DNA from: a virus
Virus genome (UHGV): UHGV-0199318
DNA: 37,852 nt
Direction: 5' to 3' (one strand)
In this document: piece after piece, positions 10,254 to 31,528 of the stretch
Numbering within the stretch: position 1 is the stretch's first letter
Layout: every line of letters starts with the position of its first letter
Position numbers and translations under genes: made by a program
The notes under the pieces: model-generated
The model's database searches: none
What the model saw: the letters and a program-made list of their open reading frames with translations, nothing else
What the model was told of the DNA's origin: nothing

Positions 10254-10340
10254 ATGAGTGAACAGAACGAATTTGGCAGAGTATCCGCAGAGGAACTGGA
10301 AAAAGTATTTGAGACAGAAGAGCAGGAGGAACAGGAGTAA
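10254..10340 (+). CDS. 28-aa acidic micro-ORF (MSEQNEFGRVSAEELEKVFETEEQEEQE) coupled to the endolysin
   Basis: Strong AGGAGGTG RBS at 10241-10248. Its stop overlaps the endolysin ATG by 1 nt. Too short for the ORF track, no known homology. Confidence 0.3.
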   Translation: MSEQNEFGRVSAEELEKVFETEEQEEQE

Positions 10341-11143
10341 TGAAAATTGGCTTAAGGGGAGGACACTCCCCGAATTGTAAAGGTGCAATCGGTCTGATCG
10401 ATGAGCAGGCAGAAGTGCGGAAAATCTACAATGAGCTTGCACCGATGTTGCAGGCTGTCGGTCATACTGTGGTTGATTGTAATTCCAACGCATCCAATGT
10501 GTCTGGTGAGCTGTCTGACGGCACAAATAAGGCGAATAGTGCGGGGTGCGATATCTATGTCACCTTGCACATGAATGCGGCAGGAGCGGCGTCAGCGGGC
10601 GGCACAGAGGTGTGGTTATACGATGCATCTAACCAGACCATGAATACGATCGCAAGTAATATCTGCAAAAATTTTGCTGGAAAAGGATTTGCGAATCGTG
10701 GAGTGAAATACAGTTCCGGCTATCACGATCTGAATGCATCTAATATGCCAGCTATGATCGTAGAGACATTATTTTGCACCGGAACAGATGATGTGGCCAG
10801 GTACCGGAGCTTAGGAGTTAAAGAAGTTGCAGAACTGATCGCAAAGGCGATCGACAGCAAAGCATCCGCAGGAAGTGGGCAGGGAAATAATCAAAATACA
10901 GGAGATCAGAAAGGAGAAGAGACTATGCAGTGTATGTTTACAGTAGAGGGAAAAGGATGTGTATATTGGTATCATGACGATAAGATTACGGCTTTGGGAC
11001 ATCCGGACGAGATGAAGATCCTGATGGATATTTACAAAGCGAACAATGGAAGAGATATGCCGTCTTATCATTGGACAAAAAAAGCGCCGTGGCACGCAAG
11101 ATTGCTTGCGGTTCTGAACAGAAAACCATCTACATCTATCTAA
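10340..11143 (+). CDS. N-acetylmuramoyl-L-alanine amidase endolysin (Amidase_3 catalytic domain plus C-terminal wall-binding region)
   Basis: GGHSPN..GA.G.IDE....R.I...L......GH.V.D...N......L.......N.....DIYVTLHMNA...A..GGTEVW and ETLFCTG match Amidase_3 motifs. 267 aa. Last gene of the lysis cassette. Confidence 0.9.
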   Translation: MKIGLRGGHSPNCKGAIGLIDEQAEVRKIYNELAPMLQAVGHTVVDCNSNASNVSGELSDGTNKANSAGCDIYVTLHMNAAGAASAGGTEVWLYDASNQTMNTIASNICKNFAGKGFANRGVKYSSGYHDLNASNMPAMIVETLFCTGTDDVARYRSLGVKEVAELIAKAIDSKASAGSGQGNNQNTGDQKGEETMQCMFTVEGKGCVYWYHDDKITALGHPDEMKILMDIYKANNGRDMPSYHWTKKAPWHARLLAVLNRKPSTSI

Positions 11144-11247: not shown

Positions 11248-12642
11248 CTAAATAAAATCAACACCTTTAATCGTATTGTCTTCGTTTAGATAAATTTCCT
11301 GGATTGTAGATCTCCAAAAAGAACGTCTATTTTCCAAAGACAGCGTATCATACATTTGCCGAAAGTCAGTTTCTAATAGTTCTTCCACATAGTGCAGGCT
11401 TCTCGTCTCTTCCTCCTCTGGAAAAGCGGCAGAAGCGGAATGTTCTTCTTCCAATCTCTGGTACTCCTTATCGTAGTAATCGTAAGAAATCCTCCCTTTT
11501 TGAAATAACAAATTTAATCGTTCCATTTCTTTTCTCAGTTTTTCCGGATCTTTCGTTTTCTTTTGCTTTTTTAGCTCTTCGCTGATCTGGTTGCTGCGTA
11601 CTTTATACTTTTCGTATTCTCTTTCGAGATTTTCGAGCAAATATTTTTCGACAAGGTTCTGGCTCACCCTATGCCTATACGTGCAAATATGATCGATAAG
11701 TGCTCTATTGCAACGGTAGTAGCAGTACGTTCTTTTTTCCCGTGTTTCACGGTTTATAATGGACGAGCATCCTGTACCGACTAATTTCTGTCCGCATACA
11801 GGGCAACGAATCAAACCCGTAAATAGGTATACTCTGCCAGATGGTGTGCTTTTTATATTTCTTTTCGAGATAGTTTGCATCTCATTCCATTCTTTTTCTG
11901 ACAGGTAGGCGGGGCAATAAGGATACCCTCTGTATGTCCCTTTATAAAATTCGCTGGATAACATCGTCCGTAACATGCCATAGCTAAAATCAATTCCATA
12001 GGTTTCCTGCATGTACCGGATAGCGCCCTTCTTGGAGTTATGATTTCTAAAATATTCAAAAAAATCTTCCACCATGTGCTCTGTTTCCGAATCTTTAACC
12101 ATGCATTTCTTTCCATCTACAACACCTGTTTTATAACCAAAAGGCATATTTGCATCTCCAAATATTAGCTTTTTCTGTCTTATAGATGCTTCATTCACAA
12201 ATTTAATTCGCTCGGATGTGGTGTCTACTTCGTTTTGACCGATCGACAGCACTACATTTAACTGCAATCGTCCATCTCTTGTCTCCATGTTTATACCGGG
12301 CTCTGATACGGAAATCCAGCGAACACCATGATCATCAAGCACATCTTGCACCTTATAAAAATCAGAAAGATTTCGAAACCATCTGTCGAGTCTCCAGAAA
12401 ATTATCACATCAATTTTATCCCTTTTTACGTCCTCTACAAGAGCGTGTATGGCTTTTCTTTTCTTCAATTCTTTTCTGGCAGTCTTTCCCTCGTCCGCAT
12501 AGACGCCTACTATAGACATATTGTTGTCTGTTGCGTATTGCTCCAGGCATTCTTTCTGTGCTTGCAGAGACTTGCCATGCACGCTCTGCTCAAATGTGGA
12601 GACGCGGATATATATGGCACACCGCAGTATTTTTTCTGGCAT
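11248..12642 (-). CDS. Large serine recombinase (phage integrase of the resolvase/invertase superfamily)
   Basis: N-terminal resolvase catalytic domain (AIYIRVSTFEQ....SL.AQ with nucleophile Ser; D..DVIIFWRLDRWFRN), followed by a recombinase domain, a Cys-rich zinc ribbon (C..C....C...C) and a coiled coil. 464 aa from the ATG at 12642, which has an AAGGAGAG RBS. Confidence 0.9.
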   Translation of the reverse strand: MPEKILRCAIYIRVSTFEQSVHGKSLQAQKECLEQYATDNNMSIVGVYADEGKTARKELKKRKAIHALVEDVKRDKIDVIIFWRLDRWFRNLSDFYKVQDVLDDHGVRWISVSEPGINMETRDGRLQLNVVLSIGQNEVDTTSERIKFVNEASIRQKKLIFGDANMPFGYKTGVVDGKKCMVKDSETEHMVEDFFEYFRNHNSKKGAIRYMQETYGIDFSYGMLRTMLSSEFYKGTYRGYPYCPAYLSEKEWNEMQTISKRNIKSTPSGRVYLFTGLIRCPVCGQKLVGTGCSSIINRETREKRTYCYYRCNRALIDHICTYRHRVSQNLVEKYLLENLEREYEKYKVRSNQISEELKKQKKTKDPEKLRKEMERLNLLFQKGRISYDYYDKEYQRLEEEHSASAAFPEEEETRSLHYVEELLETDFRQMYDTLSLENRRSFWRSTIQEIYLNEDNTIKGVDFI

Positions 12643-12819
12643 TTGCATCACTCTCCTTTTGTAAAATATATTTAAAATTTGTACAAAAATAACAGCCAGC
12701 GTACGAACTGATGTTCCGCTTGCGTGACTGCCCCGAAGATGATACAATATTCGTGGATTTCAATCGCATATCTTCGGATATGTATACCGTCTCTGTTGGC
12801 GCAGGGGCGGTTTTTTATT

Positions 12820-27285: not shown

Positions 27286-27536
27286 CCAGAGAGAGCATGA
27301 AACGTAGAAAGGAGATAGCAGGAGTTATCCGAAAGATTGAAGCGTACACTATGGCAACGAGGAAGCCCTGTGAGACAGCTTTAAAGCAACAGGAGCATAA
27401 AGCCTTTGCCTGTGATTTTAAAGGCGGCGAGAGGGCGAATAAGGACGCTGTGGAGTACATAGCAGAGAAATACAACATAAAAGAGCCAATTCCTGGAGGT
27501 GATAGAGTTGGACAAGAAAACACTGAAAAAGTATAA
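27282..27536 (+). CDS. Hypothetical protein (84 aa)
   Basis: ATGA-coupled to the previous gene. The longer ORF-track version (from 27192) lacks an RBS. Confidence 0.4.
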   Translation: MTRESMKRRKEIAGVIRKIEAYTMATRKPCETALKQQEHKAFACDFKGGERANKDAVEYIAEKYNIKEPIPGGDRVGQENTEKV

Positions 27537-27936
27537 GCCAAACAAAGATAGACTTATCCGGATTGAGAACCAGATACAAGAACTCTGTGAACGGGAATCG
27601 ACTGTTGTCATGGGGAAGGTAACGGGATCCAGCGCAGATTTTCCGTACACCGAAGTGAGAACATCTGTACAAATGTATGATCCTTACGAGGAAGAGAATA
27701 TAAGACGTCAGATCAGAAGAAAAGAAGCGGACAGGCTGCAGATCCTAAAAGAGCAAAGAGAGATTGAGGAATACATAAATGGGATTGGTGATCCGGAGAT
27801 TAAGGAGATATTCGAATTATCGTTTATAGAGGGAAAGAAGCAGAGAGAGGTTGCAGATATAATATCCATTGATAGAAGTAGAATATCTCGAAAGGTTAGC
27901 ACTTATTTAGAAAACGCACACAAAGCACAAAAATAA
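27508..27936 (+). CDS. ArpU-family phage late transcriptional regulator (sigma-70 region-4-like HTH)
   Basis: ~142 aa. C-terminus REVADIISIDRSRISRKVSTYLE is a region-4-type HTH. Positioned immediately upstream of the packaging/late genes. TTG at 27508 follows GGAGGTGA; GTG at 27499 is an alternative start. Confidence 0.65.
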   Translation: MDKKTLKKYKPNKDRLIRIENQIQELCERESTVVMGKVTGSSADFPYTEVRTSVQMYDPYEEENIRRQIRRKEADRLQILKEQREIEEYINGIGDPEIKEIFELSFIEGKKQREVADIISIDRSRISRKVSTYLENAHKAQK

Positions 27937-27938
27937 TA

Positions 27939-27947
27939 TGCTATAAT
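27939..27947 (+). promoter_or_regulatory. Extended -10 element (TGcTATAAT) at the head of the structured non-coding region
   Basis: tgctataat directly after the ArpU stop. Followed by the dyad tagaac(N11)gttcta at 27953-27975, a possible activator site. Confidence 0.35.
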
Positions 27948-28043
27948 TATTCTAGAACGATTGTATATTGTTCTAAAACAATCTTTCCAAACATTCGGAA
28001 CACCGCCGGACTTCTCCCCTTTCTTGTCTGGCGGTGTTTCTAT

Positions 28044-28087
28044 GCCGTGGTCAGTTGGGACAAGCGGGTTCGATCCCTGCACACGGT
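28044..28087 (+). other. tRNA-like fragment (acceptor-like stem, D-loop-like AGTTGGGA and a canonical T-arm, but no anticodon arm)
   Basis: gccgtgg-tcagttggga-caa-GCGGG-TTCGATC-CCTGC-acacggt. The T-stem/loop is canonical (GGTTCGATCC) and ccgtg/cacgg could pair as an acceptor-like stem. Confidence 0.3.
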
Positions 28088-28159
28088 TTTGTGATGTGAG
28101 TATACAGGCTGCACAGCTGAGGTCTGTTCTGGGAGTGCACACCGGCTTTACATCACAAA
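28088..28159 (+). other. Long perfect hairpin (10-bp outer stem tttgtgatgt / acatcacaaa with structured interior); candidate small RNA or regulatory structure
   Basis: Outer stem 28088-28097 pairs with 28150-28159. Inner tgcac...gtgca pairing is present. Non-coding context between ArpU and TerS. Confidence 0.35.
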
Positions 28160-28283
28160 TGGTACCAAAACGCAGATATCCGCAGATCTGCAAAAACAAA
28201 CAAAAAATAGATTCAGCGATCTATATTTAGTGTCAGTACCCGATTGCGGATAGGGTAAAGGATGTCAATAAAGGGCATCCTAT

Positions 28284-28356
28284 GGGTGTATAGCTCAGTA
28301 GGTAGAGCAATCGGCTGTTAACCGATGTGTCGTAGGTTCGAGTCCTGCTATACCCG
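28284..28356 (+). tRNA. tRNA-Asn (anticodon GUU)
   Basis: 73-nt cloverleaf: acceptor GGGTGTA/TATACCC, D-arm GCTC-AGTAGGTA-GAGC, anticodon arm ATCGG-CTGTTAA-CCGAT (U33, GUU, A37), variable GTGTC, T-arm GTAGG-TTCGAGT-CCTGC, discriminator G. Confidence 0.9.
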
Positions 28357-28501
28357 TTGTGGACTACTGCAAGGTTTCTCCTTTACTTATATATTTTTGA
28401 TTGTGTTTTTTGTAGTCGTATTCAAGCGTATTAGCAGTAGTCCTAAATTCTTAGCATCCAGAGATGGATACTTTTATTATGTTTTAAAGGTGGTGGGTCG
28501 G

Positions 28502-28957
28502 ATGGCAAAAGGTAAATATCAGGAATGGCTAGAGCCGGAAGGCTTGCTAAAGATAGAGGGATGGGCGAGAGACGGTCTGACGGATGAACAGATTGCAGAT
28601 AATATCGGGATTTCCAGAAGCACATTAAATAGCTGGAAAGACAAGTATTCGGACATTTCGGACACCCTAAAAAGAGGGAAAGAGGTCGTTGATCGTCAAG
28701 TCGAGAATACTCTGTTAAAACGTGCGCTCGGATATGAGTACACGGAAACAACCAGAGAATACATACCGGAACTTGATGAGATGAAAACTACGAAAAAGGT
28801 CACAAAGCAAGTAGTACCAGACACAACAGCCCAGATCTTTTGGCTGAAGAACCGGAAACCAGACAAGTGGAGAGATAAGCAGGAATACGAGGACAGAACA
28901 GCAATTGAAAAGCTTGATGAAATCTTGAAAGGATTGCATGACAATGCAGCTAAGTAA
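28502..28957 (+). CDS. terS: Terminase small subunit (HTH-containing)
   Basis: 151 aa from ATG 28502 with AAGGTGGTGGG RBS. HTH LTDEQIADNIGISRSTLNSW. Immediately upstream of and overlapping TerL. The ORF-track 5' extension overlaps the tRNA and is rejected. Confidence 0.75.
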   Translation: MAKGKYQEWLEPEGLLKIEGWARDGLTDEQIADNIGISRSTLNSWKDKYSDISDTLKRGKEVVDRQVENTLLKRALGYEYTETTREYIPELDEMKTTKKVTKQVVPDTTAQIFWLKNRKPDKWRDKQEYEDRTAIEKLDEILKGLHDNAAK

Positions 28958-30185
28958 AAAACAGAATGAATACATCATAAACGCAACTCATAGATGGAAT
29001 ATCAAGTCCGGAGCGGTTCGTTCTGGAAAGTCTTTTGTAGACACTGCTTATATCGTGCCTAAAAGAATCCGAGAGAGAGCTGGACTTCCCGGCTTAAATG
29101 TAATCATGGGTGTCTCCAAAGAATCCATAGAGCGAAACGTACTCCAACCGATGAGAGAGATCTATACCAGTGATCTAATCGGGAACATTAACAACCGGAA
29201 TGTGGCAAGAGTATGCGGAGAGGATGTTTATTGTCTCGGTGCAGAAAAGGTCAGTCAGGTCGCGAAGATACAGGGAGCGTCCATTAAGTACTGTTACGGC
29301 GATGAGATAGCAAAATGGAACAAAGAGGTGTTCCAGATGCTTAAATCCCGTCTCGATAAGACGTATTCCTGTTTTGATGGAGCTTGCAACCCGGAGAATC
29401 CGACACATTGGCTAAAAGAATTTCTCGACAATAAAAAATTAGATATCTATTTGCAGAGATACACGATTTTCGACAATCCGTTTCTGGCTCCAGATTTCGT
29501 GGAGAAGCTCTGCATCGAATATGACGGTACCGTTTATTATGACCGGTTGATTCTTGGTCTATGGAAACGAGCAGAGGGAGCGATTTACCGCAAATTTGCA
29601 GATCATCCGAAAGATTTTGTCAAAGAGCCGACTGCATCCGATCTGACAGAGATTGTCATTGGCGTGGACTTTGGTGGTAATAAGTCTGGTCATTCTTTCG
29701 TGGCAAGAGGGTATGACCGAGACAATAATGTATACGGATTGAAGAGTATCCGATACATGAATACGGACACGAAAAGGTTTAAAGAGGGAATTGATTCAAA
29801 CATTCTGAATGATCTTCTTATTCAATTTGTTGATGAGGTGCAAGAAAAGTATGGAAAGGTTGATTTTATTTACTGGGATAACGCGGAGACTACGCTCGGC
29901 CATAGTATACGGAATGCCATGATGAAAGCGCATCCGAATGTAATTGTGAGACCGGCTAAGAAAATTAGGATAAAAGACCGGATTGAGTGCGTCTTAAAGC
30001 TCATGGGAGCTGGGCGCTTTTTTATTACAGAGGATTGCGAAACATTATCGATAGCATTACAAGAAGCGGTGTGGGATGAAAAAGCATTAAAAGACGATCG
30101 TCTGGATGACGGAAGTAGTGATATTGATACACTGGATGCATTTGAGTACACGATAGAACGCGACATTAAAATGCTGACAGAGTGA
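28938..30185 (+). CDS. terL: Terminase large subunit (PBSX-type)
   Basis: N-terminal Walker A GAVRSGKS in the context KSGAVRSGKSF. 415 aa. ATPase and nuclease halves are both present. Sits in the TerS-TerL-portal order. Confidence 0.9.
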   Translation: MTMQLSKKQNEYIINATHRWNIKSGAVRSGKSFVDTAYIVPKRIRERAGLPGLNVIMGVSKESIERNVLQPMREIYTSDLIGNINNRNVARVCGEDVYCLGAEKVSQVAKIQGASIKYCYGDEIAKWNKEVFQMLKSRLDKTYSCFDGACNPENPTHWLKEFLDNKKLDIYLQRYTIFDNPFLAPDFVEKLCIEYDGTVYYDRLILGLWKRAEGAIYRKFADHPKDFVKEPTASDLTEIVIGVDFGGNKSGHSFVARGYDRDNNVYGLKSIRYMNTDTKRFKEGIDSNILNDLLIQFVDEVQEKYGKVDFIYWDNAETTLGHSIRNAMMKAHPNVIVRPAKKIRIKDRIECVLKLMGAGRFFITEDCETLSIALQEAVWDEKALKDDRLDDGSSDIDTLDAFEYTIERDIKMLTE

Positions 30186-30193
30186 GGTGCAAG

Positions 30194-31528
30194 ATGTTTA
30201 AGTTTATTAACAAGGTTATTACAGGAGTGTTTAACATGATAAGCAGAACCACGATGAAGCAGGTGTTGAGAGAATCTCCTGCAATTACAAGCACAATGGT
30301 GCAGAAAATAAATGAATGGAACAGCATGCTCTCTGGGAATGCAGACTGGTGCAAGGATTATGTGAAGTCCCTGAGGATTGAACAGGGGATATGTAGAGAG
30401 TTTGCAGATGTTGTGCTGTCGGAAATGGAAATAAAAATATCGAACGATAAGCTCTTAAAACTGTTTGAGAAAACCACAGAGAGCCTGAATGAGAATCTAC
30501 AGGACGGTCTTGGACTTGGTTCGTTCTGCCTAAAACCCCTTGGAAATGAACAGGCAGAGTTCGTGACAGCAGATAAGTTCATCCCGGTGAGCTTTGGAAA
30601 TGATGAGAAGCCGAACGATATAGTCTTTCTGGACTTCCGAGACATAGACGATGCAAAGTATTATGTTCGCCTGGAGCGGCACAGTATCAAAAACGGATTC
30701 CTCGAGATCACAAACGAAGCCTATTGCTCATCCACAAGATATGGATTTGACCGGAAAATCTCTCTGGAAAGCTTAGAAGCATGGGCTGGACTGCCGGAGC
30801 ATGTAGCGTATCCGGGAGTAAGGGAGATGGATTTTGGGTACTACAGAAATCCGATAAAAAACAGGGTTGACGACACGCCATGCGGTGTGTCTATTTTTGA
30901 TTCCGCGATCAACCTTATTGAGAGAGCTGATGTGCAGGGAGCAAGGATAGACTGGGAATTTGAATCCGGAGAGAGGGCAATCCACGTGGACGCTGCAGCC
31001 ATTAAGAGAGAGCCAGATGGACGGAATGGAGTATCTAAGCTAAGCAAGCGCTTATATGTTGGAATCGACAGCGAGGAAGGGTTTTACAAAGAGTTCTCGC
31101 CGGAATTCCGGGAAGAGAATCTAATAAACGGTCTAGATAACTACCTCAGACAGATCGAGCTTGTAGTCGGACTTGCATTCGGAGATTTAAGCAATCCGCA
31201 GAGCATCGACAAGACAGCCACAGAAGTAAAAGTATCCAAAAACCGGAAGTACAACCGAGTAAAGGCGATTCAAGATAATTTAAGGGACTGCTTAGAGGAT
31301 TTTGTAAGAGGTATGGCGTTCCACGAGGGGATGCTTCATTCCGGATATGAGTTTATCTGCAGTTTTAAAGATTCGATCCTGACAGACGAGGAAACGGACA
31401 GACAACTGATGCTAAATGAGATAGCAGCCGGAATCAGATCACACTGGGAGTACAGGGTTCGATTCCTCGGGGAGGATGAAGAAACTGCAAAAGCGAATGT
31501 GCCGGATCAAGGTGGAGTAATGGAGTGA
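30194..31528 (+). CDS. Portal protein (SPP1 gp6-like)
   Basis: 444 aa from ATG 30194 with GAGGTG RBS. Directly follows TerL and precedes a MuF-like gene. Size and position are typical. Confidence 0.85.
   Translation: MFKFINKVITGVFNMISRTTMKQVLRESPAITSTMVQKINEWNSMLSGNADWCKDYVKSLRIEQGICREFADVVLSEMEIKISNDKLLKLFEKTTESLNENLQDGLGLGSFCLKPLGNEQAEFVTADKFIPVSFGNDEKPNDIVFLDFRDIDDAKYYVRLERHSIKNGFLEITNEAYCSSTRYGFDRKISLESLEAWAGLPEHVAYPGVREMDFGYYRNPIKNRVDDTPCGVSIFDSAINLIERADVQGARIDWEFESGERAIHVDAAAIKREPDGRNGVSKLSKRLYVGIDSEEGFYKEFSPEFREENLINGLDNYLRQIELVVGLAFGDLSNPQSIDKTATEVKVSKNRKYNRVKAIQDNLRDCLEDFVRGMAFHEGMLHSGYEFICSFKDSILTDEETDRQLMLNEIAAGIRSHWEYRVRFLGEDEETAKANVPDQGGVME

What the first reader, a model, noticed from the sequence alone, without database searches (positions are those of the whole stretch)
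27937..28360. Structured 420-bp non-coding region between the late activator and TerS: extended -10, dyad, tRNA-like fragment, 72-nt hairpin and tRNA-Asn(GUU)
After the ArpU stop there is a TGcTATAAT element and a tagaac(N11)gttcta dyad. Next comes a tRNA-like piece with a canonical T-arm (GCGGG-TTCGATC-CCTGC), a D-loop-like AGTTGGGA and an acceptor-like pairing but no anticodon arm (28044-28087). A long perfect-stem hairpin follows (28088-28159), and finally a bona fide 73-nt tRNA-Asn. The tRNA-like fragment could be a relic of an ancestral tRNA-targeting attP, a tRNA-derived small RNA, or a processing signal. The intact tRNA-Asn probably supports translation of the AAU/AAC-rich structural genes. 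The whole region is positioned to be the late-operon leader.
Basis: partly seen in the sequence, partly recalled or inferred. Interest (0 to 1): 0.55.

Follow-up and report, generated by a model that had tools for sequence, protein, structure and literature searches.

The report
Anticodon-less mini-tRNA in phage late leader
The spacer between the late-gene activator and the small terminase of this Ruminococcus gnavus phage is a chain of conserved RNA hairpins containing a real tRNA-Asn and a 44-base "top-half" tRNA mimic with no anticodon arm, which most likely acts as a cutting signal for the host's tRNA-processing enzymes rather than as a relic or a decoder.

Summary
TGcTATAAT (27939-47), the dyad (27953-75), the 44-nt tRNA-like piece (28044-87), the hairpin (28088-28159) and tRNA-Asn(GUU) (28284-28356) are all present.

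The window is a temperate R. gnavus siphophage. In 169 related loci the mini-tRNA occurs 124 times in 22 variants. It is 99.3% paired, and 5 of 13 pairs show compensatory changes. G.U intermediates work only on the + strand.

The same slot in other relatives holds a 70-72-nt non-canonical tRNA whose anticodon arm is often degenerate. Only the acceptor/T-arm half therefore seems to matter.

Every tRNA(-like) unit has a hairpin just upstream and a stem just downstream. This fits RNase P/RNase Z punctuation that releases hairpin-capped RNAs: a ~90-nt leader, a nearly invariant ~195-nt structured RNA and the late mRNA.

The attP-relic idea fails. Both acceptor strands are present, no host tRNA matches, and the serine integrase lies 16 kb away.

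There is no Rfam match. Transcription and cleavage are inferred, not shown. I rate it a new variant of a known kind (tRNA-like processing elements), of moderate interest.

The parts
27499..27936 (+).
   Evidence: ORF. Only weak Sigma70_r4 (E 4e-4) and DUF1492 (E 2e-3) hits, and no ArpU hit. Homologous position to the 'RinA family' genes of phiRg phages.
27915..27929 (+). Two direct repeats CGCACA / AGCACA (period 9), the presumed activator-binding site
   Evidence: Read. Relatives carry other repeats at the same place: TTTCACA x2, ATTTATA x2, ATTAACA x2, TTGTCC x3, TTTTTCG x3, GTTCTAA x2. In six repeat variants read the last repeat ends 12 nt before the -10; the TTGTCC (18 nt) and GTTCTAA (29 nt) types differ. 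Function inferred from PMC3753634.
27939..27947 (+). Extended -10 TGcTATAAT of the presumed late promoter
   Evidence: Conserved as TGnTAyAAT in window-type relatives and as TATAAC/TATATC in others. No -35, which fits activator dependence (inference).
27953..27975 (+). Dyad, read as the 5'-terminal stem-loop of the leader RNA
   Evidence: 9-bp stem, dG -8.4, z -4.4. At least four unrelated sequences in relatives all form a hairpin at this position, with G.U-compatible changes (my reading).
27976..27999 (+). Conserved single-stranded stretch AAAACAAUCUUUCCAAACAUUCGG
   Evidence: Unpaired in the MFE fold. CUUUCCAAAC is conserved across promoter types. Role unknown.
28000..28043 (+). Terminator-type hairpin (12 bp, 14-nt C/U-rich loop) plus tail UUUCUAU
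   Evidence: dG -21.8, z -6.7. Conserved in all 9 phages. The terminator scan did not call it because the loop exceeds 8 nt. Other contexts place a different hairpin plus U-rich tail before the mini.
28044..28088 (+). Mini-tRNA: acceptor 28044-49/28082-87, D-like stem-loop 28050-61, T arm 28064-80, discriminator U 28088. No anticodon arm.
   Evidence: 124 copies and 22 variants in 169 loci. 99.3% paired, 5 of 13 pairs with double compensatory changes, 0 of 500 shuffles reach the score. tRNA-like fold equals the MFE. No Rfam or ARAGORN call.
28088..28159 (+). Slot-B hairpin: outer stem P1 (28088-28100 / 28147-28159), inner branch P3 (CUGG / CCGG) with loop GAGUGCACA, and CAGCUG in the other branch
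   Evidence: P1 and P3 are 96.4% paired with 3 pairs showing double changes. At least 7 sequence versions exist in relatives, all hairpins.
28160..28283 (+). Nearly invariant 3' domain: palindrome UGGUACCA 28160-67, H1 28172-91, A-rich linker, H2 28207-24, H3 28237-57, H4 28260-80. Possible loop-loop pairing 28178-84 with 28245-51.
   Evidence: 97.5% paired but too conserved for covariation. There are single compensatory cases in H2 and H3. + strand z -2.4, - strand z -1.3.
28284..28356 (+). tRNA-Asn(GUU), 73 nt, no encoded CCA
   Evidence: Rfam 69.9 bits. ARAGORN. Replaced by Ile(UAU), Trp(CCA) or a UUU-anticodon variant in relatives.
28361..28443 (+). 10-bp long-range stem GGACUACUGC / GCAGUAGUCC around a U-rich loop, starting 4 nt after the tRNA
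   Evidence: Covariation in relatives: one U-A to C-G double change and several G.U variants.
28451..28485 (+). Conserved element just before terS: promoter-like TTAGCA-18-TATTAT that overlaps a short hairpin plus U-tract
   Evidence: Not resolved whether it is a promoter or a terminator.
28502..28957 (+). Small terminase gene (terS), followed by terL at 28938-30185
   Evidence: HTH_23 and GP3_package hits for terS, Terminase_6N for terL.

Best explanation
The 27.94-28.50 kb spacer is the transcribed, structured leader of the late (packaging and head-tail) operon.

**Start of the transcript.** It starts at an activator-dependent promoter that abuts the activator gene: direct repeats plus an extended -10.

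**Layout.** The leader is an array of modules:
1. a 5' stem-loop;
2. a short leader that ends in a terminator-type hairpin;
3. a 44-nt 'top-half' tRNA mimic;
4. a ~195-nt structured RNA;
5. a true tRNA;
6. a long-range stem in front of terS.

**The mimic.** It keeps what RNase P, RNase Z and the CCA-adding enzyme read on a tRNA. That is an acceptor helix stacked on a T arm, plus the elbow nucleotides (the GG of a D-like loop and UUCGAUC). It has no anticodon arm, so it cannot decode.

**Proposed mechanism.** Host RNase P cuts at its 5' end and RNase Z cuts after its discriminator, and the same happens at tRNA-Asn. The two tRNA-shaped units would then act as punctuation marks. They would release:
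- (a) a ~90-nt leader RNA capped by hairpins at both ends;
- (b) the ~195-nt RNA 28089-28283, capped by hairpin B at its 5' end and by H4 at its 3' end;
- (c) the late mRNA with a protective 5' stem.

**Shown.** The sequences, the conservation, the strand-specific covariation of the mimic and of several stems, the modular exchange, and the hairpin capping.

**Inferred.** Transcription from that promoter, read-through of the 28000-37 hairpin, the two cleavages, and the stability of the products.
For: **1. Structure is under selection.**
- 22 variants from 124 copies are 99.3% paired.
- Compensatory double changes occur in the acceptor pair 2-71, in both D-like pairs and in two T-stem pairs.
- G.U intermediates are tolerated only on the + strand.

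**2. Only the top half matters.**
- In 41 of 127 loci the same slot holds a 70-72-nt tRNA-shaped RNA. It scores below the Rfam tRNA threshold and has an 8-bp acceptor.
- In 11 of those 41 the anticodon loop is non-canonical, and ARAGORN no longer calls the element.

**3. Flanks are constant in kind, not in sequence.**
- Four different upstream contexts all place a hairpin plus a U-rich tail 6-10 nt before the mini.
- The stem of slot B starts 0-4 nt after the discriminator in all B versions.
- tRNA-Asn has H4 3 nt upstream and a covarying 10-bp stem 4 nt downstream.

**4. The tRNA slot is interchangeable.** It holds Asn, Ile, Trp or a UUU-anticodon variant.

**5. The promoter reading fits published work.** Repeats that differ by activator type sit next to a -10, as for Ltr activators (PMC3753634).

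**6. The leader and the central RNA fold better than shuffles on the + strand.** z is -7.6 and -2.4, against -1.3 for the - strand.

**7. General knowledge (not tested here).** Acceptor/T-arm minihelices are substrates of RNase P and RNase Z. CCA-less tRNAs of Firmicutes are matured by RNase Z.
Against: - No RNA data exist. Neither transcription nor any cleavage has been seen.
- The 28000-37 hairpin would have to be read through. In staphylococcal phages the mapped terS start lies 23 bp before the ATG, far downstream of the activator site (PMC3152322). A promoter-like element sits in the same place here (28451-80). The late mRNA may therefore not start at 27954.
- Two relatives (L110, L218) have deleted everything from the mini's T loop to the tRNA's T loop. 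Two others have almost no slot B (L198/199). The array is therefore not essential, if those contigs are live phages.
- The sequences are closely related (85% mean column identity). The covariation rests on few independent events.
- The acceptor has only 6 pairs plus a G-A or G-G mismatch.
- The folding energy of the mini alone is ordinary (z -0.8).
Confidence: 0.5

Rival explanations
1. The mini-tRNA is itself the functional product. Once excised (and perhaps given CCA), it acts as a tRNA top-half mimic. It could titrate or decoy a tRNA-binding protein, such as a host defence toxin aimed at the acceptor end, the CCA-adding enzyme, EF-Tu, a synthetase or a modification enzyme.
For: The same structural conservation applies as for the main explanation. 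The elbow-forming nucleotides are invariant: G16, G17 and the T loop in A4. It occurs in about 120 gut-phage contigs. It is placed directly after strong promoters in some relatives, for example TTGACA-17-TATACT in L217.
Against: No partner is known. There is no G3:U70 or other obvious identity element (read). This reading does not explain why a full-length tRNA-shaped RNA can replace the mini, nor the hairpin capping of the neighbours. It does not exclude the processing model.
Confidence: 0.2
2. The mini-tRNA is a decaying tRNA pseudogene. An internal deletion removed the D stem and the anticodon arm, and the remnant is carried along passively in a recombination-prone phage tRNA island.
For: - The tRNA slots are in flux. 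Slot A holds the mini, the 72-nt form or the 70-nt degenerate form. Slot C holds Asn, Ile, Trp or the UUU variant.
- Deletions between T arms occur (L110, L218).
- The relatives are close.
- ARAGORN and Rfam give no call.
Against: - Two sequence types of 44 and 45 nt differ at many positions yet keep every helix.
- 5 pairs show double compensatory changes, and only 2 of 286 pair cells are unpaired.
- No intermediate lengths were seen.
- The position relative to flanking hairpins is fixed across four contexts.
Confidence: 0.15
3. The region works mainly as DNA: an attP relic, a pac/cos packaging site or a set of protein-binding palindromes next to terS. On this reading the RNA folds are incidental.
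For: 6-bp palindromes are enriched: 6 in 196 bp, or 30.6 per kb, against 12.2 per kb in the window. They include TGGTACCA and GCAGATCTGC. The region lies upstream of terS. 28160-28283 is nearly invariant.
Against: - The substitution patterns pass through G.U, which pairs only in + strand RNA.
- The mini has both acceptor strands, and no host tRNA matches it.
- The integrase is a serine recombinase at 11248-12747.
- In several relatives 2-3 genes lie between this region and terS.
Confidence: 0.07

Closest known systems
Plant mitochondrial t-elements; MALAT1/mascRNA; MHV68 TMER vtRNA-pre-miRNA units (tRNA-like processing signals)
   Same: These are acceptor/T-arm tRNA mimics embedded in longer transcripts, and their role is to recruit RNase P and/or RNase Z so that neighbouring RNAs get defined ends (t-elements: PMC1920247). 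In the TMERs a hairpin follows the tRNA-like unit directly, as slot B does here (my knowledge).
   Different: Those are eukaryotic, organellar or herpesviral. This one is in a bacterial DNA phage and is smaller (44-45 nt). It keeps a 2-3-bp D-like stem and sits in a late-operon leader next to a real tRNA. No cleavage has been shown here.
Phage and bacterial non-tRNA substrates of RNase P and tRNA-mRNA co-transcripts (P1/P7 C4 RNA precursor, phi80 M3 RNA, T4 tRNA-cluster stable RNAs, secG-leuU; tRNA genes downstream of PR' in Stx phages)
   Same: Phage small RNAs or mRNAs get their ends from tRNA-processing enzymes. In the Stx phages tRNA genes are placed in a late-operon leader (my knowledge, not tested here).
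   Different: None of these is an anticodon-less mini-tRNA with a canonical T loop. No sequence or Rfam relation was found.
tRNA-like domain of tmRNA
   Same: An acceptor stem, a T arm and a D-loop analogue without an anticodon arm.
   Different: In tmRNA the two halves are separated by the mRNA-like domain and pseudoknots, and G3:U70 gives alanine identity. Here the element is contiguous and has C3-G70. ARAGORN finds no tmRNA.
Ltr (RinA/ArpU/LtrA-C) late-promoter regions of Gram-positive temperate phages
   Same: Short direct repeats lie immediately at or after the activator gene, and a terminator lies in the activator-terS spacer (PMC3753634, PMC3152322).
   Different: The spacer here is ~565 nt and carries tRNA(-like) genes and conserved hairpins. 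An extended -10 lies 12 nt from the last repeat.
ROOL and GOLLD RNAs (large phage RNAs near tRNA islands)
   Same: Structured non-coding RNA of Firmicute phages or prophages next to tRNA genes. GOLLD rises during lysis (PMC12286853). Exposed self-complementary loops occur here too.
   Different: No Rfam match. The RNA here is ~195 nt, against 580-800 nt. No oligomerisation evidence exists.

Membership tests
Canonical tRNA (Rfam RF00005 / ARAGORN) | Cloverleaf with an anticodon stem-loop; recognised by tRNA covariance model or ARAGORN | tested here: not met
   No call for 28044-87 by ARAGORN or by Rfam even at E<=10 on 58 nt; only an 11.7-bit partial tRNA-Sec hit. There is no room for an anticodon arm in 44 nt.
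Canonical tRNA (Rfam RF00005 / ARAGORN) | T arm of 5 bp with loop UUCRANY, and an acceptor stem pairing the 5' and 3' ends | tested here: met
   GCGGG-UUCGAUC-CCUGC and GCCGUG/CACGGU. Both helices covary. The acceptor has 6 bp rather than 7.
tRNA-like processing element (t-element / mascRNA type) | Conserved acceptor + T-arm mimic lying at the boundary of other RNAs in one transcript | tested here: met
   Covariation. Fixed position between a hairpin-ended leader and hairpin B in four contexts.
tRNA-like processing element (t-element / mascRNA type) | Cleavage by RNase P at the 5' end and RNase Z at the 3' end | not testable with these tools
   Needs RNA end mapping or in vitro cleavage.
att-site tRNA fragment (attP/attB relic) | Colinear 3' (or 5') piece of a host tRNA gene with one acceptor strand, identical to a host tRNA, next to the integrase | tested here: not met
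   Both acceptor strands are present. In 185,579 species genomes the 3'-half pattern hits only true tRNAs of other taxa, chance sites and two Lachnospiraceae prophage copies. The serine integrase is at 11248-12747.
tmRNA | tRNA-like domain split by a tag-encoding mRNA-like domain; G3:U70 | tested here: not met
   ARAGORN finds no tmRNA. The element is contiguous, and position 3-70 is C-G.
Ltr-dependent late promoter region | Short direct repeats at or immediately distal to the activator gene, specific for the activator type | tested here: met
   CGCACA/AGCACA here. At least 7 other repeat sets co-occur with other activator gene ends. Binding itself was not tested.
Ltr-dependent late promoter region | Activator belongs to ArpU/RinA/LtrA-C families | tested here: inconclusive
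   Only sub-threshold Sigma70_r4 (20.3 bits) and DUF1492 (18.9 bits) hits.
Intrinsic terminator (28000-28043) | G+C-rich stem followed by a U-tract | tested here: inconclusive
   The stem is strong. The tail is only UUUCUAU here, and UUUUUAU or UUUUCAU in relatives.
ROOL / GOLLD / Y RNA-like and other Rfam families | Match to the family covariance model | tested here: not met
   No hit other than tRNA-Asn at gathering score. Nothing meaningful at E<=10 over 27850-28550.

The most novel reading that the evidence does not exclude
The tRNA mimic and the tRNA may be the two 'scissor marks' that excise a new phage non-coding RNA of about 195 nt (28089-28283), made together with the late genes.

This RNA would have two parts:
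- an exchangeable Y-shaped 5' domain whose loops expose self-complementary hexamers. These are GUGCAC and CAGCUG here, and GCGCGC/CGAUCG, UCCGGA or CCGG in other versions;
- an almost invariant 3' domain with a possible 7-bp loop-loop kiss (AUCCGCA with UGCGGAU).

It could be a small cousin of the tRNA-island RNAs ROOL and GOLLD, and it might pair with itself through the palindromic loops.

A second strand of this reading concerns the promoter. The activator-bound promoter would sit upstream of a terminator-type hairpin. Late transcription would then need read-through. This bears on the unexplained >155-bp gap between the RinA site and the terS start in staphylococcal phages.
Probability: 0.25. 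Interest if true: 0.75.

Novelty: new variant of a known kind. Interest (0 to 1): 0.58.

Why it matters
tRNA-shaped processing signals are well known in organelles, mammalian nuclei and a herpesvirus. I found no description of an anticodon-less mini-tRNA kept by selection in a bacterial phage (no Rfam family).

If the model is right, three things follow:
- Some "tRNA genes" and "tRNA fragments" in phage tRNA islands are there to shape RNAs, not to decode.
- There would be a natural counterpart of engineered tRNA-guide RNA arrays.
- There would be a defined, testable ~195-nt late RNA in prophages of a gut bacterium linked to inflammatory bowel disease.

It would also give a concrete system for asking how Ltr-type activators drive late transcription across a terminator.

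If the model is wrong, the region is still a usefully annotated late-operon leader with one ordinary tRNA.

Tried and rejected
- **Rfam.** The whole window at gathering score and the region at E<=10 gave nothing except tRNA-Asn. The remaining low hits (Plastid-ycf2, XIST repeat, RefA5, glycine aptamer) are noise.
- **Single-sequence folding energy of the mini and of hairpin B.** Not significant (z -0.8 to -1.6), so I relied on comparison instead.
- **RNA-RNA target search.** I tested the leader, the terminator loop and hairpin B against 40 translation-initiation regions of the window. The best hit (14464 region) is a G+C-rich coincidence. No complementary site for the GAGUGCACA loop exists elsewhere in the window.
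- **Third GGTTCGATTCC at 31456.** It lies inside the portal gene and has no T stem, so it is chance.
- **Covariation in 28160-28283.** Compatible but uninformative, because the region is almost invariant.
- **Inner fold of hairpin B.** RNAalifold and my own P2 proposal disagree between versions. Only P1 and P3 are claimed.
- **Coding potential.** The ORFs across the region (89 aa on +, 98 aa on -) and the 48-aa gene annotated in RG-TP1 are not credible. Relatives differ by many frame-breaking indels and by whole-module swaps.
- **Asn codon bias.** Late and early genes differ little, and no host reference was available.
- **Literature.** The paper on the related phages mentions only 'one or two tRNA genes'.
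Full report
**What the window is**

The region lies between a 145-aa late-activator gene (27499-27936) and terS (28502-28957) and terL. BLAST against phage records finds the same spacer in temperate Ruminococcus (Mediterraneibacter) gnavus siphophages. RG-TP1 is 88% identical. The others are phiRg507T2_2/_3, phiRgIBDN1, phiRg519T2, phiRM10, phiRgPS_6 and a faecal contig. In these phages the upstream gene is annotated as a 'RinA family transcriptional activator'. The paper on these phages mentions only one or two tRNA genes (PMC10072058).

**Checking the observation**

- TGcTATAAT at 27939-47.
- The dyad at 27953-75.
- The tRNA-like piece at 28044-87.
- The hairpin at 28088-28159.
- tRNA-Asn(GUU) at 28284-28356 (69.9 bits).

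This is a 12-bp hairpin at 28000-37 followed by UUUCUAU (dG -21.8, z -6.7). Four further hairpins between 28172 and 28280 were also missed. The 'perfect-stem' hairpin is perfect only in its outer 10-13 bp. The mini is not called by ARAGORN or Rfam.

**The spacer is modular**

An alignment of nine phages and three pattern scans of viral contigs gave 169 related loci.

*Slot A, right after the first hairpin, holds one of three things*:
- The 44/45-nt mini: 124 copies in 22 intact variants of two sequence types.
- A 72-nt tRNA-shaped RNA. ARAGORN calls it Ala(CGC), but it scores below the Rfam tRNA threshold and has an 8-bp acceptor.
- A 70-nt form whose anticodon loop is non-canonical. ARAGORN no longer calls this one.

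All fold as hairpins.

*The next ~125 nt* are almost invariant.

*The final tRNA* is Asn(GUU), Ile(UAU), Trp(CCA) or the Asn backbone with a UUU anticodon.

**The mini-tRNA is kept by selection on structure**

On the 22 variants, the fold has a 6-bp acceptor, a 2-bp (3-bp in the window) D-like stem and a 5-bp T stem.
- It is 99.3% paired.
- Five of its 13 pairs show changes on both sides: acceptor 2-71 (C-G, U.G, U-A), both D-like pairs, and T-stem pairs 49-65 and 51-63.
- No shuffle out of 500 reaches the covariation score.
- Slid controls fall to 24-56% paired.

G.U intermediates are frequent, which fits RNA of the + strand only. The loop nucleotides that form a tRNA elbow (GG in the D-like loop, UUCGA in the T loop) are invariant. 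The tRNA-like fold is energetically as good as the MFE. The limits of this evidence are that the sequences are close relatives and the independent events are few.

**Why I favour a punctuation role**

First, slot A tolerates loss or decay of the anticodon arm but not of the acceptor/T-arm half.

Second, the flanks are constant in kind but not in sequence. The mini is always preceded, 6-10 nt upstream, by a hairpin plus a U-rich tail. This holds in four different contexts:
- the activator-promoter leader;
- the terminator of an inserted two-gene cassette that I read as hicAB-like (not tested);
- a short leader behind a TTGACA-17-TATACT promoter;
- a gene-end terminator.

It is followed within 0-4 nt by the outer stem of slot B. 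tRNA-Asn shows the same pattern. Hairpin H4 ends 3 nt upstream. A 10-bp stem (28361-70 with 28434-43) starts 4 nt downstream and covaries (U-A to C-G, several G.U).

If RNase P and RNase Z cut at both tRNA-shaped units, every product would carry a hairpin at each new end. The products would be a ~90-nt leader (z -7.6), a ~195-nt central RNA (z -2.4 on +, -1.3 on -) and the late mRNA with a 5' stem. That minihelices are substrates for these enzymes, and that end hairpins protect RNAs in Firmicutes, is general knowledge and was not tested here.

**The promoter**

All relatives carry two or three direct 6-7-nt repeats at or just after the end of the activator gene. The repeats differ with the activator type. 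In six repeat variants read they end 12 nt before TGnTAyAAT. In another type, the third repeat (TTGTCC) sits 18 nt before TATAAC.

Quiles-Puchalt et al. showed that such repeats are the binding sites of Ltr activators, and that a terminator lies in the activator-terS spacer (PMC3753634). Ferrer et al. mapped the phi11 terS start 23 bp before the ATG, more than 155 bp from the RinA site, and called this unexplained (PMC3152322). Here a promoter-like element (28451-80) lies at the equivalent place. I cannot decide whether the late mRNA starts at ~27954 and reads through the hairpin, or starts near terS.

**Other structures**

The slot-B outer stem and an inner stem closing the loop GAGUGCACA are supported by wobble and compensatory variation.

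The invariant domain is compatible with four hairpins and with a 7-bp pairing between the H1 loop and the H3 loop. It varies too little to test this. Single compensatory cases exist for H2 and H3.

Six-base palindromes are 2.5 times enriched. They sit in loops of every slot-B version. I have no tested explanation for this.

**Rejected readings**

*attP relic.* The element has both acceptor strands. No host tRNA matches it. A scan of 185,579 species genomes returned true tRNAs of other taxa (Thr(CGU) of Companilactobacillus, Ser(UGA) of Clostridia, archaeal Asn, Glu), a few chance sites and two Lachnospiraceae prophage copies of the mini. The integrase is a serine recombinase 16 kb away.

*tmRNA, Y RNA, ROOL and GOLLD.* No model match.

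*Coding.* Relatives differ by frame-breaking indels and module swaps.

**Verdict**

The leader and processing readings are favoured, the attP reading is rejected, and the codon-supply reading is untested.

The mini-tRNA is best described as a new bacterial-phage variant of the known class of tRNA-like processing elements. I put about 0.5 confidence on the mechanism, because no RNA data exist.

Noticed in passing
window 8374-9642 (- strand): A 421-aa IS110-family transposase (DEDD_Tnp_IS110 1e-28, Transposase_20 2e-15) sits inside the phage genome, between the end of the tail genes (~8258) and the amidase (10340-11143) and lysogeny genes. Its non-coding flank (bridge RNA) and insertion site were not examined.
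   Followed up: no
L001 1565-1637, L006, L007, L008 and 37 further loci (slot homologous to window 28044-87): The 'tRNA-Ala(CGC)' annotated in related phages is atypical. It has an 8-bp acceptor, a 5-bp D stem and a 3-nt variable region, and scores below the Rfam tRNA threshold (28.3 bits to the tRNA-Sec model). G3 pairs with C70, so alanine identity is doubtful. In 11 of 41 loci the anticodon arm is shortened or degenerate: 10 carry a 4-bp stem with loop GGUAUCG, and the two tested (L064, L071) are not called by ARAGORN.
   Followed up: partly
L217 5058-5132; also L019, L084, L116 (slot homologous to window 28284-28356): The tRNA-Asn backbone occurs with anticodon UUU (ARAGORN: Lys) through a single G-to-U change in the anticodon. 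Other relatives carry Ile(UAU) or Trp(CCA) in the same slot.
   Followed up: partly
L044, L046, L086, L101, L107, L226, L236: An ~800-bp cassette is inserted exactly between the leader hairpin and the mini-tRNA. It has its own TTGACA-17-TATAAT promoter, two small genes (the first begins MKRRELVKMLEKNGWY, HicA-like by eye) and its own terminator. The protein family was not tested.
   Followed up: no
L110 and L218: Deletion chimeras: the 5' part of the mini-tRNA is fused in the T loop to the 3' end of the downstream tRNA (Asn or Ile). Everything in between is removed. This looks like recombination between the two T arms.
   Followed up: no
window 28361-28370 with 28434-28443: A 10-bp long-range stem encloses a U-rich ~63-nt loop directly after tRNA-Asn. 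It is conserved in about 118 loci, with one compensatory U-A to C-G change and several G.U variants.
   Followed up: yes
window 28451-28485: A conserved element lies ~20 nt before the terS start codon. It reads both as a promoter (TTAGCA-18-TATTAT) and, in relatives, as a hairpin GCAUCC...GGGUGC plus UUUUAUUAU. Its position matches the mapped phi11 terS start (PMC3152322).
   Followed up: partly
window 28088-28283: Six 6-bp palindromes lie in 196 bp: GTATAC, CAGCTG, GTGCAC, GGTACC, GATATC and AGATCT. Two extend to TGGTACCA and GCAGATCTGC. That is 30.6 per kb against 12.2 per kb in the window. Other slot-B versions also expose palindromes in loops (UCCGGA, UUCCGGAA, GCGCGC/CGAUCG). Unexplained.
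   Followed up: partly
window 28178-28184 and 28245-28251: The loop of hairpin H1 (AUCCGCA) is perfectly complementary to the loop of hairpin H3 (UGCGGAU). Both are invariant, apart from one C-to-U change (giving a U.G wobble) and one U-to-C change that unpairs the terminal position. This could be an intramolecular kissing interaction.
   Followed up: partly
window 28012-28025: The 14-nt loop of the leader hairpin is C/U-rich (UUCUCCCCUUUCUU), like the anti-Shine-Dalgarno loops of some Firmicute small RNAs. A duplex search against the window's start regions gave no outstanding target.
   Followed up: partly
window 11248-12747 (- strand): The integrase of this phage is a large serine recombinase (Resolvase + Zn_ribbon_recom). 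The paper on the six related isolates reports a tyrosine integrase (PMC10072058). The lysogeny modules therefore differ.
   Followed up: no
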